The translations under genes were made by a program, and so were the position numbers. Source: Eimeria praecox (Eukaryota). Taken from it: a stretch of 64,000 bases of DNA. Below the pieces are notes generated by a model that made no database searches, was not told the origin of the DNA, and worked only from the letters and a program-made list of their open reading frames with translations. The stretch is taken from positions 8,804,001-8,868,000 of the forward strand of contig OY986946.1 of NCBI GenBank assembly GCA_963920595.1, in the 5' to 3' direction. Numbering within the stretch: the stretch's first letter is position 1; every line of letters starts with the position of its first letter. Positions 54,367 through 62,626 of this stretch are shown here, in pieces.

Positions 54367-57300
54367 TGGGATTTGCTCTAGACAGAGGAATGTAGGGTCT
54401 CCTGTCTGTCGTGGACAGTCTTCACAACAGATAAATAAAGTTTTATCTACTTCTGCTGCTTCTCTTGCAGCAGCAGCAGCAAATGTAGAAGCCCCAGTAT
54501 CTACTGATGCTGCCACTGTCCCGCCCCTCCCAGCAGCAGCAGCAACACCAGCAGCAACAGCAGCAACACCAGCAGCAGAAGCAGCAGCAGCACCAGGAGA
54601 GGAGCGCTTTCCGTTCCAGGCTGAGGTGAAGCGTGTGTTAGATATCATCGTTCACAGTCTTTATACAGATAAAGATGTATTCTTACGCGAGCTCATCTCC
54701 AACGCAGCAGATGCCTGTGATAAGAAACGTGTGCTGCTGCAGCAGCAAGAGCAGCAAGATCAGCAGCAGCAAGATCAGCAACAGCAGGAGCAGCAGCAGC
54801 AGCAGAAACAGCAGTGGAGGGGTTCTATTCGAGTGTATGCAGACAAGAAGGCGGGGACGTTAACTATAGAAGATGATGGCATAGGGATGAGTAGACAAGA
54901 ACTCATAGATAATCTCGGGACGATAGCACAATCAGGCACATACAAATTCGCTCAGCATCTGCAGCAGCAGCAGCAGCAGCAGCAGCAGGAAGATGGTGGG
55001 GTTGTTAGTGGGGCGAACGATCTCATAGGACAATTTGGTGTTGGCTTCTACTCTGCATTTCTAGTTGCAGACAAAGTTGAAGTCGTATCTTCTCGTTGGA
55101 CGCCATCATCAACAGCAGCAGCAGCAGGAACAGCAGCAGCAGCAGCAGTACCTGAGGTGTGGAAGTGGAGCTCGAGCTGTGGACAGACGTTCGCTGTACA
55201 GCCGTTAGATGCAGCAGCAGAGCAGCAGCGATGGCAGCAGCAAACGCATGCATTACATTCGAGTCTGCAACAGCAAGCAGCCAAGGGGAATAGCAGTTTA
55301 CCTCTTCATGAACGACAGCAGCAGCAGCAGCAAATGCAGCAGGTAGAGCAGCAGCAGCTGTCTCAACCATGGACGGGCACACGAGTAATCCTACATCTTC
55401 GAGAAGACTGTGATGATTATCTTGAAGATTATAGATTAAAAGATTTGATGAAGAAGTACTCCGAGTTTCTCTCTGTCCCTATCTATCTTTTAGGAGAAAG
55501 AGTAGAATATGAGAGGGTACCTGATACAGAAGCCCAGGAGGCAGGGGGGGCCCCAGGGGCCCCCAAGTTCAAGACAGTAACAAATAGATTTCATGAGTGG
55601 CTACATCTTAATACACAACCTCCTATATGGAGAAGACCTGAAGATACACTTACAGAAAAAGATTATGTAGACTTCTACAAAGCCACATTCAAGGTATTCT
55701 TGCTGCTGCTGCTGTAGCTGTCTTTGCTGCTGCTGCTGCTGTCTTTGCTGCTGTCTTTGCTGCTGCTTTTCTGTGGACTCGTCATGCATGCATGCATGCA
55801 TGTACGGATGGATGGATGAGGTGTATTTGTTGTGTGTGGGGTTGTCTGTGTCTTCAGGCCTACGACGATCCCCTGGCTTTCTTACATATGGCGGTAGAAG
55901 GTCAAGTATCATTCAGGGCTCTGCTGTTCGTGCCTGGGACTATACCTTGGGAGCTTTCAAGAAACATGTTTGGTGGGGCTGCATGCAGTGATTGTAGACC
56001 CTAAACTTCTGCTGCTGCTATTGTTGTTGTTTCGTTCTATATTGTTGCTGCTGTTGTTTCTGCTGTTGCTGCTTACAGATGAAGACTCACGAGGCATTCG
56101 ACTATATGTACGTCGCGTCTTCATCAATGACAAGTTCCAGGAGGCGGTACCGAGGTGAGAAGATGAAGAGGTTTAGGGTTTACCGTATCTTTTAATTCTA
56201 TGGGCTTCTGCTTAATTAGATGTTTGTTTGATTCCTAATAGAGACATCAAGGCTTGTCGTAGCCTTCTATGGGGGCAACTGCTGTTGTTGTCGACGATTG
56301 CTGGTGGTGGTGGTGCTGTTTTGTTTGTTTTTGCTGTATTTATGTCGCGTCTTTATGCTGCTATTGTGATGATTTCGCTCCCTCTACTGAGCTCTGTCTT
56401 GAGGACAATGCGAATTACGGAATCGATTACAACAAATTCTGATTTTGCAGCTTACATCTTTTTGTTTTTTTCTTTTCTTCATGTCTGTCCTCTTTATTTT
56501 AATGTACTATTTTTGTTTGTTATAATTTGTATGTGCTTGTCGGGGATGATTGGCGCGTGTCAGTTGAGGCCCCTCGTTGTCTCGCGTAACCTCGAACCCA
56601 CGCGGGAGCCGAGGAAGTCGTTGTAATAAACGCCGCGCATCTGAGACGAAAAATACGATTATTTGTTGTTAAATGGAGTGAATATTTGTTTTTATTTGTG
56701 GTTTATTGAAAACAATCATGAAAATGATTTGCTTCCATGACTGCTTTTTAGGTCTTTCGATTTGTTGACTTGTGTTCAAGTTTCTCGTGTTTGATGTTTG
56801 CATATTCGTACACTTGCTGATGTTGTATTTATGATATTTTGATAAAAATATGGTTTTAATGGATGTTTATTTTGAATATGGTGATGAAGAGTATAAAATA
56901 TGTTGATTTCGTTCATGGTGCAGGTGGCTTACCTTCATCAGAGGTGTTGTCGATTCAGACGATCTTCCCTTAAATGTAGGTAGAGAGATTCTTCAGAAAT
57001 CGCAAATGCTGCGAGTTGTTCATAAAAGAATTGCTGCAAAAGCAGTTGAAATGATTCAAGCCATTAAACGTCAAGGAAATGATAAATGGGATCGCTTCTG
57101 GGAAAACTACGGAAAATATATTAAGGTAGGTTAGACTAGGTGCCTATACACCGCAGCAACATGTTCATATTCATGTTCATGTTTTCATCATTATTTCAAA
57201 TGTACGATTTCTTGTGATCTTTCTCGTGTTTTTGATTCGTTTCAAATCCATTGAATACCTTTTGTTCTGTTTTCATCTTCATTTCCCCTTCTATCCTCCT

Positions 57301-57873
57301 CCTTATCCTCGGATAGGGCATTTTCTTCTTGTTTCCAGCGGTTTCGTGATGATTTGTGGCTACCGATATTCCCTTTGGGATATGCGGAGAACTTCTCTTG
57401 CTGGAATTACCGACTGATGAAGCCGCTCTCTATGTTGATGTTTGATTCGTTTGTTTACGTGTTTCTCTTTTTCTTAGTTTTTCCTGTTCCTTTTCTATCA
57501 AATTTCGTTGTATTGTTGTATGTTTCTTGCTGCTTTATGCTGCTATTGTGATGATTTCGCTCCCTCTACTGAGGTCTCTCTATTGAGGACAATGCGAATT
57601 ACGGAATCGATTATAACACCTTCTGATTTGCAGCATGCATATATTACTCTATTCTTTTCTTGATGTTGTTTATTTCTATTCCCTCTCTTTCTTTCAAGTT
57701 TGTTGTTCGTCAAGGATGATTGGCGCGTGTCAGTTGAGACCCCTCGTTGTCTCGCGTAACCTCGAACCCACGCGGGAGCCGAGGAAGTCCTTGTAATAAA
57801 CGCCGCGCATCTGAGAAGACGACTCTATAGAATTTATTATTCTATTTGTTTTGTTTGTTTACATGTACAAGTG

Positions 57874-57919
<46 letters not shown>

Positions 57920-58559
57920 AGTGTGTGTGTGTATGTATTGAAAGAATACAACAGCATCATTTACTTGAATTTTATGAAGTTGTGTTTTTTTTTCTTCTGT
58001 CTCCCTCAGATTGGCGCTGTAGAAGACAGAGATCAACAGCAGGCCTTAGCATCTCTCGTACGACTTCATTCTTCTAATTCGAAAACATCATTAACAACAT
58101 TGGATGATTATCTAGCTCGTTTAGATGCGAGGAACCGTCTCATAGAAGAGGGGAAACATCCTCCTTTGCCTGATGGCCAACCCGCAAAGAAACAGAAGGC
58201 GATATATTTCTTAGCAGCAGAAAATAGAAGAGCAGCAGAAGATAGTCCTGCATTAGAAGGACTACGAGTAAGAGGACTTGAAGTTTTATTTGGTGTAGAA
58301 CCTCTAGACGAGTTCTTCCTTGCCTCATTAGGTATATCCCAATATAAAGGCTATCCTGTTATAGATGTTAATAAAGCAGATCTACAATTAGATGTAGATG
58401 AAAACAACAACAACCCCACCCAACAACACATTGATAATCCTAATCAACAAAATAATGAAGATAAGTTAAAAATGCTACAACAAACAGACTTAACCACAAA
58501 AAAAATCGAACTCGGACCGTAAGTTCTTATTATACATTCCCTCTTCTATCACTTTATAC

Positions 58560-58605
<46 letters not shown>

Positions 58606-60589
58606 GATAGATGTATATGAAGTGTTATTGTATTTATTAGTTTGATTATATTTGTTGCGGAGTGCTGGTGTTGATCTTCCTGTGTATTTGTCGCTTTACA
58701 TCTCTAACTGCATCTTTCTTTACATCACCTCTCCTTATATATATATGAATATATGTATGTGTATCTGTTGGCTAGTTTTCATTATATATATATATATAGT
58801 TTATTCATTTATGTATTTATTTCTTTTGCATGCAAATAAGACAGAGTTTGATGATCTAAGGCTTCCTATTCTCCTCGTGCGGAGAGAAAATTAGCTGGAG
58901 TTACCGACTGATCAGTCTTATTTATTTATTTTATTTATATATTTTATTTATATATTTTATTTATTTGTTTGTTTATTTTGTTGTGCTTGTTTATGTGTCT
59001 TTTTCTCTTTTACTTGTTTTGTTGTCATTTTATATGAAGCCCTTGTCCTTTTCATTATCATATTTATTATATTTATACTTATTATCTTTATTATGTTTAT
59101 TATGTTTTTTTTTTATTTAGTATTATATTTCTATTTATTGAGGCAGATGAATACGTATTATTTTGTATTCTTTCTTTCCCCTAGTACAGCACTTCATAAA
59201 TATATATAAACAACTAACTCCCTCCATGTATAAACGTATTTTTTAAACATGTTTGATTCTTCCTTTATATTTGTATTTGCCTATATCTAAATTTATGATT
59301 ATCTCTTCGTTGTTTTTATTTTTATTTGTTTTTTCAGGTTAGTGGAGTGGCTACAGCAGTGTCTCGGTCCTCGCGTTCATAGTGTTTCTGTCTCTTCTCG
59401 TCTTGTAGATAATCCCGCTGTCTTAGTACAAGGACAATTAGGCCTTTCTCCTACAATGCAAAGATACATGCAACAGCAAGCAGCAGCACAGGGGTTAACA
59501 GATCAAAAACTCTTTGGGGCTTCTCTCAGTCAACCTATCCTTGAAATCAATCCTTTACATCCTATTATTAAACAATTAGACCTGATGGTGAGTTAATCCA
59601 TAAATAAATACATAAATAAATTGTTTTTATTTATTTATTTATTTATTCTCGTTTCTTTCTCTTCTCTTTATGTCGCATTCTCTCTGTCTCTCTCTGCCTT
59701 TGCTTGTTTCTCTCTGTCTGTCTTCTTCGCTTTCTTTCTCTGTTTTGTTTTGTTGTTGCATGCATAGTAAAGAAGTAAAAGAAGGATGCTCAGGTGTCTG
59801 TACACCTCAGAATTTATAAATTCTTGAGCCTCTTTCTCCTTGTTTTTTGTTTTGTTTGTTTCTGTTTCTGTCTTACATATTTGAATTATTATTTACTTGT
59901 TTATTTATTTATTTATCTGTTTGTTTTTTTCTACTTGTTGTGATTATATTACCAAGTAGTCGATGATTGTTGATAGTAGATAATGAAGCAGCTCTTTGGC
60001 TGCTTTTGACTAAACATAAATAAATGCTGAGACTACAACTATCTGTCTATCTACCTGTATATATATATATATATATATAATATAATTTAATAAATATAAT
60101 TAAACAAATAAAGTATCTATCTATATATATATATGTATATATATGTTATGAGTTGCCTAATGATGGATAACTTGATCGCTTGATATATCTTCTTCTGTAT
60201 AAAACAGAGAAGAGATGAAAGTTTATAGGAAGAGGCTGACGGCAGAAGATGCATAGAATATAATTAATTTAATTTAATTTAATTTAATTTATTATGCTTG
60301 CCTTTGTCTTTTTAATTTAATTATTTTTTCTTAGTTTTGCTCTTGTAGTCTGTTTGTTTCTCTCTGTATGCACTGTTTTCTACCTATTTTGCTCTTGTAG
60401 TCTGTTTGTTTCTCTCTGTATGCACTGTTTTCTACCTATTTTCTACACTATATGCATACATAATAGAGACTGTTTATATTGTCTGTATTATATCAAGTGT
60501 ATCTCTTAAACATCTTATGTATAGTATCCATATATAACCATTATATTTTTATATCTGTATATCTGTCTCTCTCCCGCTCTCTCTCTCCC

Positions 60590-60625
<36 letters not shown>

Positions 60626-60827
60626 GTGTTATTTGTTCTGTCTCTGTTAATTTGTTTAGGTGAAGGCGAATCCATCGAGTGAGTCAGCAAAGACATTATG
60701 TTTAGAGTTATTTGCTGTTGCTGCATTACAAGGAGGATATACACTCGAAGAGCCGGGGGCATTCGCCAAATCTGTTCTTAATCTTCTTTCTAAAGAAGCA
60801 GAGTCCTTCCTTAAAGATAAACAAGCA

Positions 60828-60830
<3 letters not shown>
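54212..60830 (+). CDS. HSP90: Hsp90, organellar and probably apicoplast-targeted; exons 54212-55693, 55858-55972, 56079-56154, 56924-57125, 58010-58518, 59338-59587, 60660-60830
   Basis: FQAEV, SLYTDKDVFLRELISNAADA, IEDDGIGM, NLGTIAQSGT, IGQFGVGFYSAF, LYVRRVFI, GVVDSDDLPLNVGREILQ and ILEINPLHPII. The N-terminus is a signal peptide plus an S/R-rich extension, and there is no MEEVD or xDEL C-terminus. Junctions are phase-consistent. Confidence 0.96.
56357..56451 (+). ncRNA. Box C/D snoRNA A1, SNORD100-like (18S guide)
   Basis: Terminal stem GCTGC/GCAGC, C box GTGATGA, guide GCTCCCTCT-A with D' CTGA, C' TGAGGA, D CTGA. The guide is complementary to conserved 18S AGAGGGAGC. Confidence 0.88.
56538..56648 (+). 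ncRNA. Long box C/D snoRNA B1 (possible mgU6-77/SNORD10-like)
   Basis: C box GGATGA, D' TTGA, internal hairpin, C' CGAGGA, D CTGA and a short terminal stem. Only two differences from copy B2 over about 100 nt. Confidence 0.75.
57337..57427 (+). ncRNA. Box C/D snoRNA C1, snR77/SNORD65-like (18S guide)
   Basis: Terminal stem AGCGGTTTC/GAAGCCGCT, C GTGATGA, 13-nt guide GCTGGAATTACCG complementary to 18S CGGUAAUUCCAGC, then A-CTGA. Confidence 0.92.
57537..57636 (+). ncRNA. Box C/D snoRNA A2, SNORD100-like paralogue
   Basis: Same boxes and guide as A1; terminal stem ATGCTGC/GCAGCAT. Confidence 0.88.
57707..57822 (+). ncRNA. Long box C/D snoRNA B2, paralogue of B1
   Basis: Same boxes as B1; terminal stem TCGTC/GACGA. 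Confidence 0.75.
58834..58923 (+). ncRNA. Box C/D snoRNA C2, diverged snR77/SNORD65-like paralogue
   Basis: Terminal stem AAATAAGAC/GTCTTATTT, C TTGATGA, C'-like TGCGGA shared with C1, guide AGCTGGAGTTACCG (one G-U) then A-CTGA. Confidence 0.88.
59956..60036 (+). ncRNA. Box C/D snoRNA D (LSU rRNA guide candidate)
   Basis: Terminal stem GTAGTC/GACTAC, C CGATGA, guide GATAGTAGATA complementary to LSU UAUCUACUAUC, D' ATGA, hairpin AAGCAGC/GCTGCTT, D CTGA. Confidence 0.78.
60154..60244 (+). ncRNA. Box C/D snoRNA E (LSU rRNA guide candidate)
   Basis: Terminal stem TGCC/GGCA, C ATGATGG, D' TTGA, internal hairpin, C' AGATGA, guide ATAGGAAGAG complementary to LSU CUCUUCCUAU, D CTGA. Confidence 0.8.
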
Positions 60831-60959: not shown

Positions 60960-62196
60960 CATGTATAATGTTCTAGTGTATGTACAGATAGGAGGGAATT
61001 CAACTCCTTTTATACAGGCAGATTAATACGTATATATATATATATATAGTATATAGTATATATAGTATATATATTATATACACATATAGATAGATAGATG
61101 TATAGAGATTGTTAACGTTTTCTTATAAGGAGTTGATGTTCTGTTGTTGTATTTTAGTTAACTAAGAACAAACGAAACAAAGAAAAAACAAGAGAATGAT
61201 TGTTTATATTTAATTTTAATTATTTTAGTAGATTATATGAGGGAGTGTGGGGTGTGTACAGACAGCTGAGGTGTATATACACCTCAGCTGTCTGTCTCTG
61301 CTGCTGCATGCATGCACAGCTATCTATTTTCTACTTTTTCTTTTTCTATGAAACTACATTTTAATTTTTTTGTCTTTTTAATTATTTCTCGTACGTTGTT
61401 GTTATATACAATATCATGTTTCTAGATGTGTATATATATATATATATATATCTATATATATATATATATATATTGAACATAGTATACATTCGTAGTAAAT
61501 ATTAAACAAGTAGATAATTAATAGAGTTGAGAAGAAAAATAAAAAAATATTAAAAAATAAATAATATAAATAATACAAATACTATAACAATAGTAAATAC
61601 AACATACTTTATTTATATCTATATATTTATATTTATATTTATATATGCAAGATTGTTGTTTCCTACAACTTTCAGGTGTATGCATATACACCAGGATACG
61701 GCTGCAGGGTCTATAATGCTGTAGCCTTAGCTAGCTAGCTACCTAGTTAAGTAGCTAGCTAGTTAGGTCTGTAGCTAGCTAGCTAGCTAGTTAAGTAGCT
61801 GGCTAGGTAGGTAGCTAGCTAGCTAGCTAGTTAGGTAGCTAGCTAGCTAGCTAGCTGTAGAGGGGAGCTGTCGTTATATTTGTTTATTATTTTATGTAAA
61901 TAATTAAATTAGTAATTTGTTTTTTTCGTGTTCGACAAACAAAACAAGAAAATAAAAATAATATTTTATTAAATCTGTTGGTGTTTAGGATATGGATATT
62001 AATAAAAATATTATTTAATATAATTATATTATTATTATTTATTATTAAAATATTATTATTATTATTATTATTAATTATTATTATTATTGTTGTTGTTATT
62101 ATTTGTATTGTTTTTATTGAACGTTATGAAGAATGATAGTTAAATTACTATCATTATTATTTTTGTTTAATAAAAATTATATATATATATATATCT

Positions 62197-62248
<52 letters not shown>

Positions 62249-62626
62249 TACTTGGTGTCTCCACACTACTTCTTCCCTTGGGGGACTTTCAATGAAATTT
62301 GCCTGAGTTTTAGGGTTTAGGGTTTAGGGTTTAGGGTTTAGGGTTTAAATAATTTTAAATTTATTTATTTATTAATTAAGGTTTAGGGTTTAGGGTCTAG
62401 GGTTTAGGGTTTAGGGTTTAGGGTTTAGGGTTTAGGGTTTAGCGTCGGCAGCAGGCAGTGTTGTACCGCGATGGTTTAGTGTATGTGAGAGGATATAAAT
62501 AAACATTAATTATATAAAATAACAAATAAATATAAAATAAAACATAAAAATAAACTTAAATTTAATTTATTTCAATACAACAACAAAAAAAACAACAATT
62601 TACTCCTGCTGCTGCTGCTGCTGCTA

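What the first reader, a model, noticed from the sequence alone, without database searches (positions are those of the whole stretch)
56357..60244. Organellar Hsp90 gene hosts a polycistronic intronic array of eight box C/D snoRNAs (five families)
Seen: introns 3, 4, 5 and 6 carry 2, 3, 1 and 2 elements, each with C and D boxes, a terminal stem and sense orientation. These introns also largely lack the CAG repeats that fill the rest of the window. Established: four families have 9-14 nt antisense elements to conserved rRNA segments next to D/D' boxes. Several snoRNAs in one intron is the plant/green-algal arrangement and needs endonucleolytic separation, unlike the vertebrate one-per-intron rule. 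Inference: a probably unannotated coccidian snoRNA cluster whose host is an apicoplast-type chaperone rather than a ribosome-biogenesis gene, which would link rRNA methylation to its transcription.
Basis: partly seen in the sequence, partly recalled or inferred. Interest (0 to 1): 0.9.

Follow-up and report, generated by a model that had tools for sequence, protein, structure and literature searches.

The report
Eight snoRNAs inside Eimeria Hsp90 introns
Four introns of an Eimeria gene for a likely apicoplast Hsp90 carry eight small guide-RNA genes, up to three per intron, predicted to direct methylation of ribosomal RNA and of the U6 splicing RNA; the layout is already known from plants and malaria parasites, so this is a good new example, not a new kind of system.

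Summary
Introns 3-6 of an intact, spliced Hsp90 gene carry 2, 3, 1 and 2 sense-strand box C/D elements. My scan found these 8 and no others in 64 kb on either strand (shuffles: mean 0.11, max 2 of 1000; scan tuned after seeing them). The host groups with the P. falciparum apicoplast Hsp90.

Families: A (2 copies) is SNORD100-like, with a 9-nt 18S guide plus 9 nt of extra pairing. C (2 copies) pairs 13-14 nt with 18S. D and E pair 10-11 nt with surrogate 28S. A weaker ninth candidate lies in intron 3.

The novelty was overstated. Two snoRNAs in one intron are published for Plasmodium, and a chaperone host (hsc70/U14) is a long-known case. Nothing here shows expression, methylation, cutting between the snoRNAs, or conservation in other species. 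Verdict: new member of a known kind; I found no paper on it in coccidia.

The parts
54212..55693 (+). Hsp90 exon 1: start codon, hydrophobic signal-peptide-like N-terminus with Ser-rich extension, ATPase domain
   Evidence: best PDB hit 3IED, E 5.3e-53, named as PfHsp90_A in PMC8616389
55858..55972 (+). Hsp90 exon 2
56079..56154 (+). Hsp90 exon 3
   Evidence: length fits the unshown part of the X4 contig
56357..56451 (+). snoRNA A1, SNORD100-like: C 56366-72, guide 56377-85, D' 56387-90, C' 56400-05, extra-pairing element 56418-26, D 56439-42
   Evidence: Rfam RF00609 25.1 bits, E 0.018, gathering 58; pairs 18S of L105 at 390-398 and 380-388, target G393
56537..56650 (+). snoRNA B1, predicted U6 C77 guide: C 56543-49, guide 56555-62, D' 56564-67, long internal hairpin, D 56641-44
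   Evidence: 8 Watson-Crick pairs with window U6 74-81, fifth nucleotide = C77; fold; no Rfam snoRNA match
56724..56820 (+). weak ninth candidate X: poor C-like box, 10-bp (1 G.U) guide 56755-64 to U6 83-92 before UUGA 56765, CUGA 56817
   Evidence: 9 of 1500 shuffles, post hoc; no terminal stem in the scan; 2 substitutions and 1 deletion among strains
56924..57125 (+). Hsp90 exon 4
57337..57427 (+). snoRNA C1: C 57346-52, 13-nt D guide 57400-12, D 57414-17
   Evidence: pairs 18S of L105 580-592, target U583; fold z -2.98; equals the yeast snR77 / human SNORD65 site (recalled)
57539..57634 (+). snoRNA A2, paralogue of A1
   Evidence: RF00609 22.1 bits, E 0.13; alignment
57704..57820 (+). snoRNA B2, paralogue of B1 (2 differences between the guide region and box D)
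58010..58518 (+). Hsp90 exon 5
58838..58920 (+). snoRNA C2, diverged paralogue of C1: 14-nt D guide with one G.U, D 58908-11
59338..59587 (+). Hsp90 exon 6
59956..60036 (+). snoRNA D: 6-bp terminal stem, C 59960-66, 11-nt guide 59972-82, D' AUGA 59983-86, 9-nt extra pairing 59994-60002, D 60027-30
   Evidence: on surrogate LSU (L072, and an LSU-like fragment in L040); fold z -2.55
60152..60245 (+). snoRNA E: C 60160-66, 10-nt D guide 60225-34, D 60236-39
   Evidence: pairs LSU of L072 and L095
60660..60830 (+). Hsp90 exon 7 with stop codon
8488..8595 (+). U6 snRNA gene copy 1 (predicted substrate of family B)
   Evidence: Rfam RF00026 106.7 bits
9539..9646 (+). U6 snRNA gene copy 2, identical to copy 1

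Best explanation
Eight box C/D snoRNA genes of five families lie on the sense strand of introns 3-6 of the Eimeria apicoplast-type Hsp90 gene; they are likely transcribed with its pre-mRNA, likely cut apart and trimmed into 70-110-nt RNAs, and are predicted to guide 2'-O-methylation of two 18S sites, two 28S sites and U6 C77. Shown by sequence or calls: gene structure, boxes, stems, guide complementarity, and duplication of the A-B pair (intron 3 to 4) and of C (intron 4 to 5) with boxes and guides kept while flanks decayed. Inferred from known snoRNP biology: core proteins bind the C/D motifs; the 5-9-bp terminal stems let this happen far from the 3' splice site (195-426 nt); after splicing and debranching, or by direct cutting, exonucleases trim to the outer snoRNPs; an unidentified endonuclease opens the U-rich 89-130-nt spacers; fibrillarin methylates the nucleotide paired five bases upstream of D or D'. 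A and D add extra pairing beside the target. The host most likely serves only as a constitutive transcript.
For: 8 hits against shuffle mean 0.108, none antisense, none elsewhere in 64 kb. A matches Rfam SNORD100 across guide, D' and C', and has a second 9-nt element pairing directly beside the guide target on an eimeriid-type 18S; PMC3116282 lists HBII-429 among human snoRNAs with extra pairing (passage; HBII-429 = SNORD100 is recalled). C1 and C2 keep 13-14 bp despite a diverged middle, the one guide change being G.U-compatible. B places the fifth nucleotide on U6 C77, listed as Cm77 guided by SNORD10/mgU6-77 in PMC7960923; the same guide also pairs 8 bp with one G.U on an LSU-like fragment, fitting the recalled dual specificity of mgU6-77. 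A1-B1 versus A2-B2: elements nearly identical, spacer and flanks poorly alignable. Strain variants in introns 3-4: 4 of 31 substitutions fall in C-to-D spans (8.5 expected, P 0.045) and 0 of 31 in boxes or guides (3.1 expected, P 0.038). In Plasmodium a dicistronic snoRNA precursor was detected by RT-PCR and PFS12 showed precursor and mature-size bands, although no Rnt1 gene was found (PMC2656528).
Against: No element reaches an Rfam gathering score, and B, C and E get no related snoRNA family even at E 10. Box C is non-canonical in 5 of 8. B's guide is only 8 bp, with a mismatch next to it. D and E were tested only on non-coccidian LSU, and by my recall their target uridines are not methylated in yeast or human. 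D uses a variant D' (AUGA) and Rfam offers a different, weaker frame (SNORD53/92, E 0.27). Only 3 of 8 fold better than 97% of shuffles (C1, A2, D). The variant test is weak: two samples, linked sites, paralogue collapse possible, introns 5-6 not tested. A 1-nt deletion falls inside E's 5' half in X3. No cleavage signal was found in the spacers.
Confidence: 0.75

Rival explanations
1. The snoRNAs are real but not separated: exonucleases stop at the outer snoRNPs and introns 3, 4 and 6 yield stable fused RNAs (about 290, 480 and 290 nt) with snoRNA ends, like human sno-lncRNAs.
For: Spacers A1-B1, C1-A2 and A2-B2 are U-rich and nearly unstructured (-1.7 to -7.9 kcal/mol) with no nested splice donors; no long flanking stems apart from TA repeats. 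No Rnt1 was found in Plasmodium (PMC2656528). Two snoRNAs at the ends of one intronic RNA give sno-lncRNAs in human cells (PMC7038934, passages).
Against: Each element has its own terminal stem. The spacers are not conserved between the duplicated A-B units. Plasmodium PFS11/12 are reported as processed from one precursor (PMC2656528).
Confidence: 0.15
2. The snoRNAs are real but transcribed from their own promoters inside the introns, independently of Hsp90.
For: All lie far from splice sites (211-375 nt from the donor, 195-426 nt from the acceptor). About two thirds of P. falciparum snoRNA genes are intergenic (PMC2811010, passage).
Against: All 8 are sense to the host. The duplicated A units share only about 6 nt upstream of the stem, so no conserved promoter is visible. 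Not tested directly.
Confidence: 0.07
3. The elements are chance motifs or dead snoRNA copies.
For: Sub-threshold Rfam scores and non-canonical C boxes; scan thresholds were post hoc.
Against: Shuffle max 2 against 8; guides at sites known to be methylated elsewhere; paralogue and strain conservation.
Confidence: 0.03

Closest known systems
P. falciparum intronic snoRNA pairs and clusters (PFS15/PFS16 in an RPS27a intron; snoRNA-27/-28 in the L7a 3'-UTR intron; PFS5-7 in Enp1 introns) (PMC2656528: text parts 1-3 of 6 read; PMC2811010: passages and supplement 2 part 1 read)
   Same: Apicomplexan box C/D snoRNAs in introns of protein genes, more than one per intron, recent duplication, variant D' boxes
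   Different: Here up to three per intron and eight per gene. The host is an organellar chaperone, whereas the Plasmodium hosts named are mostly ribosome-related. The guide targets differ from those in Mishra's Table 1.
Plant and Chlamydomonas intronic snoRNA clusters (plant clusters: PMC2656528 and PMC7038934 passages; Chlamydomonas and rice hsp70 clusters recalled, paper not held)
   Same: Polycistronic intronic layout with mixed families and paralogues
   Different: Different lineage; processing enzyme unknown here
U14 in hsc70 introns (PMC7277114, passages)
   Same: Heat-shock chaperone gene as snoRNA host
   Different: Cytosolic Hsp70 in vertebrates (one snoRNA per intron, recalled); here an apicoplast-type Hsp90
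SNORD100 / HBII-429 (Rfam RF00609)
   Same: Guide, D' and C' align exactly with the model consensus; extra pairing present
   Different: 25 bits against a gathering score of 58; longer 3' half
SNORD10 / mgU6-77 (PMC7960923 Table 1)
   Same: Predicted target U6 C77; guide next to D'; long internal hairpin and possible second 28S target (both recalled for SNORD10)
   Different: No Rfam match; shorter guide (8 bp); LARP7-binding motif not tested
snR77 / SNORD65 (recalled)
   Same: Same 18S site by guide sequence
   Different: No Rfam match at E 10, so a functional equivalent rather than a shown homologue
PfHsp90_A, PF3D7_1443900 (PMC8616389, passages)
   Same: Same clade (100 SH-aLRT), best PDB hit 3IED, signal-peptide-like leader
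   Different: No snoRNA is reported in the Plasmodium gene in the two papers read (gene id PF14_0417, recalled, had 0 hits in PMC2811010 text and 4 of 5 supplements)

Membership tests
Box C/D methylation-guide snoRNA | Box C near the 5' end and CUGA box D near the 3' end | tested here: met
   8 of 8 have CUGA; box C is canonical in 3, one mismatch in 4, two in 1
Box C/D methylation-guide snoRNA | Terminal stem joining the boxes | tested here: met
   5-9 bp in all 8
Box C/D methylation-guide snoRNA | Antisense element directly upstream of D or D' to rRNA or snRNA | tested here: met
   A 9, B 8, C 13-14, D 11, E 10 nt; 28S only on surrogate sequences
Box C/D methylation-guide snoRNA | Stable small RNA bound by fibrillarin/Nop56/Nop58/Snu13; target methylated | not testable with these tools
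   No RNA holder listed; only contigs were available
Rfam SNORD100 (RF00609) | Score at or above the gathering threshold | tested here: not met
   25.1 and 22.1 bits against 58
Rfam SNORD100 (RF00609) | Same D' guide | tested here: met
   Guide, D' and C' identical to the consensus in the alignment
SNORD10 / mgU6-77 | D' guide selecting U6 C77 | tested here: met
   with the window's own U6
SNORD10 / mgU6-77 | Covariance-model similarity | tested here: not met
   No snoRNA family at E 10 on 56528-56660
SNORD10 / mgU6-77 | Second target in 28S | tested here: inconclusive
   8 bp with 1 G.U on the L040 fragment, 2 G.U on L072; no coccidian 28S in hand
Polycistronic intronic snoRNA cluster | Two or more snoRNAs in one intron, sense to the host | tested here: met
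   Introns 3, 4, 6; no nested donors
Polycistronic intronic snoRNA cluster | Endonucleolytic release of monomers | not testable with these tools
   No small-RNA reads; no genome held in which to look for RNase III
Apicoplast Hsp90 (PfHsp90_A group) | Phylogenetic placement with PfHsp90_A, apart from ER Hsp90 | tested here: met
   Quick tree of 27 rows, 100 SH-aLRT; cytosolic and TRAP1 paralogues were not in the tree; ranks 3IED above them
Apicoplast Hsp90 (PfHsp90_A group) | Bipartite leader and apicoplast localisation | tested here: inconclusive
   Hydrophobic N-terminus plus Ser-rich stretch by eye; no predictor run, no localisation data

The most novel reading that the evidence does not exclude
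Coccidia use an apicoplast-chaperone pre-mRNA as the source of their U6-methylating guides (B twice, possibly X as a third, dual U6/U2 guide), and release the clustered snoRNAs without RNase III, or keep them as fused multi-guide RNAs. Apicoplast chaperone transcription would then set the modification state of the spliceosome and ribosome.
Probability: 0.15. Interest if true: 0.6.

Novelty: new member of a known kind. Interest (0 to 1): 0.33.

Why it matters
It gives a concrete, testable set of snoRNAs for coccidia, where my five searches naming Eimeria, Toxoplasma or apicomplexans with snoRNA or rRNA-modification terms listed no paper devoted to coccidian snoRNAs. It predicts U6 C77 methylation in an apicomplexan. 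It offers a compact substrate for asking how clustered intronic snoRNAs are separated in a phylum where Rnt1 was not found in Plasmodium. Practically, knocking out or repressing this Hsp90 gene would also remove eight snoRNAs and could confound the phenotype. None of this changes a general principle.

Tried and rejected
Rfam at gathering thresholds finds only the two U6 genes. Narrow Rfam scans of B and E gave no related family. Sequencing runs: no RNA holder listed. The one possibly-RNA run, X4, showed zero depth in the bins over B1, C1, A2, B2, C2, D and E and only part-bin depth near A1, which is no evidence on expression. No whole genome is held, so RNase III/Dicer and other snoRNA loci could not be sought. 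Viral-contig scans for rRNA gave no usable operon, only an LSU-like fragment in L040. Nested introns around single snoRNAs: rejected, no donor motif in the four spacers. RNase III-type stems: only TA-microsatellite hairpins. The Rfam SNORD53/92 frame for D (59935-60013) was not preferred, because it lacks a CUGA end and the 6-bp stem closes 59956-60036. A 12-15-nt LSU match in E (about 60200-60214) was set aside: it lies in an internal hairpin, is pyrimidine-rich in the target and has no C' box after it. B's and D's D-adjacent segments have no convincing target. The Babesia rRNA-modification preprint (PMC12642447: outline, section 9, supplement parts 1, 2, 4 of 4) gave no site list in text, so the D and E sites could not be checked. 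U2-like loci L106-L108 could not be confirmed as U2 and were found with a recalled motif, so the 8-bp match of X to them is circular. Pfam scans were not completed. Earlier-findings look-ups by place returned nothing.
Full report
Setting. The window has the CAG and TTTAGGG repeats typical of Eimeria (repeat signature recalled), and the host protein's best hits are from E. media and E. stiedai. No whole genome is held.

Host gene. Seven exons (54212-60830) give a 934-aa protein with no internal stop and six GT..AG introns. A 1879-nt contig of run X4, guessed to be RNA, joins the exons at these boundaries (six pieces shown, and the unshown 75 letters fit exon 3). In a quick tree of 27 rows (26 of the 120 listed hits plus the window protein; the careful search did not finish) the protein sits with Eimeria, Besnoitia, Neospora, Theileria and Plasmodium proteins at 100 SH-aLRT, apart from the Cystoisospora ER-type Hsp90. 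The 927-aa Plasmodium protein in that clade ends in KTLL, which PMC8616389 gives as the C-terminus of apicoplast PfHsp90_A (passages). The best PDB hit is 3IED, which that paper names as PfHsp90_A's N-domain. Apicoplast localisation in Eimeria is inferred.

The elements. A scan for C-like box, CUGA, terminal stem and guide of 8 bp or more found 8 elements in introns 3-6 (2, 3, 1, 2), none antisense and none in the rest of the window. Shuffles gave mean 0.108, max 2 of 1000; without the guide condition, mean 0.42, max 4. The thresholds were chosen after inspection. Rfam finds none at its cut-offs.

Targets. I used an 18S from metagenome contig L105, found with a recalled coccidian primer-like motif and so taken as eimeriid by inference; Rfam-verified eukaryotic rDNA contaminating bacterial assemblies (L072, L077, L095); and the window's own U6. 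Family A aligns to SNORD100 through guide, D' and C' (E 0.018 and 0.13). Its 9-nt guide selects 18S G393, and a second 9-nt element pairs one base away from the guide's target, the 'extra base-pairing' described in PMC3116282, which lists HBII-429 (passages). Family C pairs 13-14 nt and selects U583, the snR77/SNORD65 site by recall. D has an 11-nt guide before an AUGA D' box and a 9-nt extra pairing about 10 nt downstream in LSU. E has a 10-nt D guide to a conserved LSU stretch. By my recall neither target uridine is methylated in yeast or human, and no coccidian 28S was available. Family B pairs 8 Watson-Crick bases with U6 74-81, which places the fifth nucleotide on C77. PMC7960923 Table 1 lists Cm77 with SNORD10/mgU6-77. 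A given 8-mer matches somewhere in U6 with probability about 0.0015; an 8-mer match somewhere in the whole rRNA set would be unremarkable, so the argument rests on the site. The same guide pairs an LSU site with one or two G.U pairs. No Rfam family supports B, so it works like mgU6-77 without shown membership.

Selection. The A-B pair occurs in introns 3 and 4 with near-identical elements and a decayed spacer; one of B's two internal changes turns a predicted G.U into A-U. C1 and C2 share little beyond boxes and guide. Among 37 substitution rows I dropped 6 exonic ones. Of the 31 intronic ones, 4 fall in C-to-D spans (8.5 expected) and 0 in boxes or guides (3.1 expected); P is about 0.04 for each. 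This is weak support: two samples, linked sites, possible collapse of paralogues, introns 5-6 untested.

Mechanism. All elements are sense to the host and far from splice sites. The spacers hold no nested donors and no stems except a TA microsatellite between D and E. The most likely route is co-transcription, snoRNP assembly on the stems, cutting in the spacers by an unknown endonuclease, and exonucleolytic trimming. In P. falciparum a dicistronic precursor was shown by RT-PCR while no Rnt1 gene was found (PMC2656528). The main rival is no cutting, giving fused snoRNA-ended RNAs as in human sno-lncRNAs (PMC7038934). Nothing here separates the two.

A ninth candidate. X (56724-56820) has a poor box C and no terminal stem, but a 10-bp guide to U6 83-92 before a UUGA (9 of 1500 shuffles, post hoc). 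Its D-adjacent 8-mer matches U2-like loci, a circular check. It carries three strain variants. I give it about 25%.

Comparison with what is known. Two snoRNAs in one intron are in print for P. falciparum (PMC2656528; PMC2811010), and hsc70 hosts U14 (PMC7277114). Earlier AI notes of this scan describe like clusters in unrelated genomes (unchecked). Searches listed no paper on coccidian snoRNA clusters (I saw titles and abstract starts only), and the library lacks most subscription journals. One supplement file of PMC2811010 could not be searched, and figure-only data of PMC12642447 may hold the modification sites that would test D and E.

Verdict. Observation confirmed, interpretation partly supported, new member of a known kind. 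Interest 0.33. The most useful addition is the predicted U6 C77 guide.

Noticed in passing
window 8488-8595 and 9539-9646: Two identical U6 snRNA genes 1051 nt apart, about 47 kb from the predicted U6 guides.
   Followed up: partly
window 8400-8487 and 9451-9538: About 90 nt upstream of each U6 copy is conserved between the copies while the DNA beyond is not. On the minus strand it ends in a motif like a tRNA T-arm/B box, recalling trypanosome U6 promoters (recalled). ARAGORN finds no tRNA and the folds are not better than shuffles.
   Followed up: partly
window 56724-56820: Possible ninth C/D RNA (X) with a 10-bp guide to U6 and perhaps an 8-bp guide to U2; weak box C, no terminal stem.
   Followed up: partly
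window 56671-56737 (approximate): A long imperfect hairpin predicted in intron 3 overlaps the C-like box of X.
   Followed up: no
window 55973: The intron 2 donor is GTGGGG, a weak-looking 5' splice site, yet the X4 contig leaves exon 2 there.
   Followed up: no
window 60335-60438: Perfect 52-nt tandem duplication in intron 6, downstream of E.
   Followed up: no
window 61711-61870: Array of CTAG/GCTA-type repeats downstream of the gene, and telomere-like TTTAGGG runs at 62306-62441.
   Followed up: no
L040:10001-10029: A 104-kb viral-collection contig holds an LSU rRNA-like fragment of at least 100 nt.
   Followed up: no
L106, L107, L108 at 301-317: Three 1.8-kb viral-collection contigs carry a stretch resembling the 5' part of U2 snRNA; not confirmed by Rfam.
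   Followed up: no
L072, L077, L095, L051: Bacterial MAG assemblies contain whole eukaryotic rDNA contigs, that is contamination.
   Followed up: no
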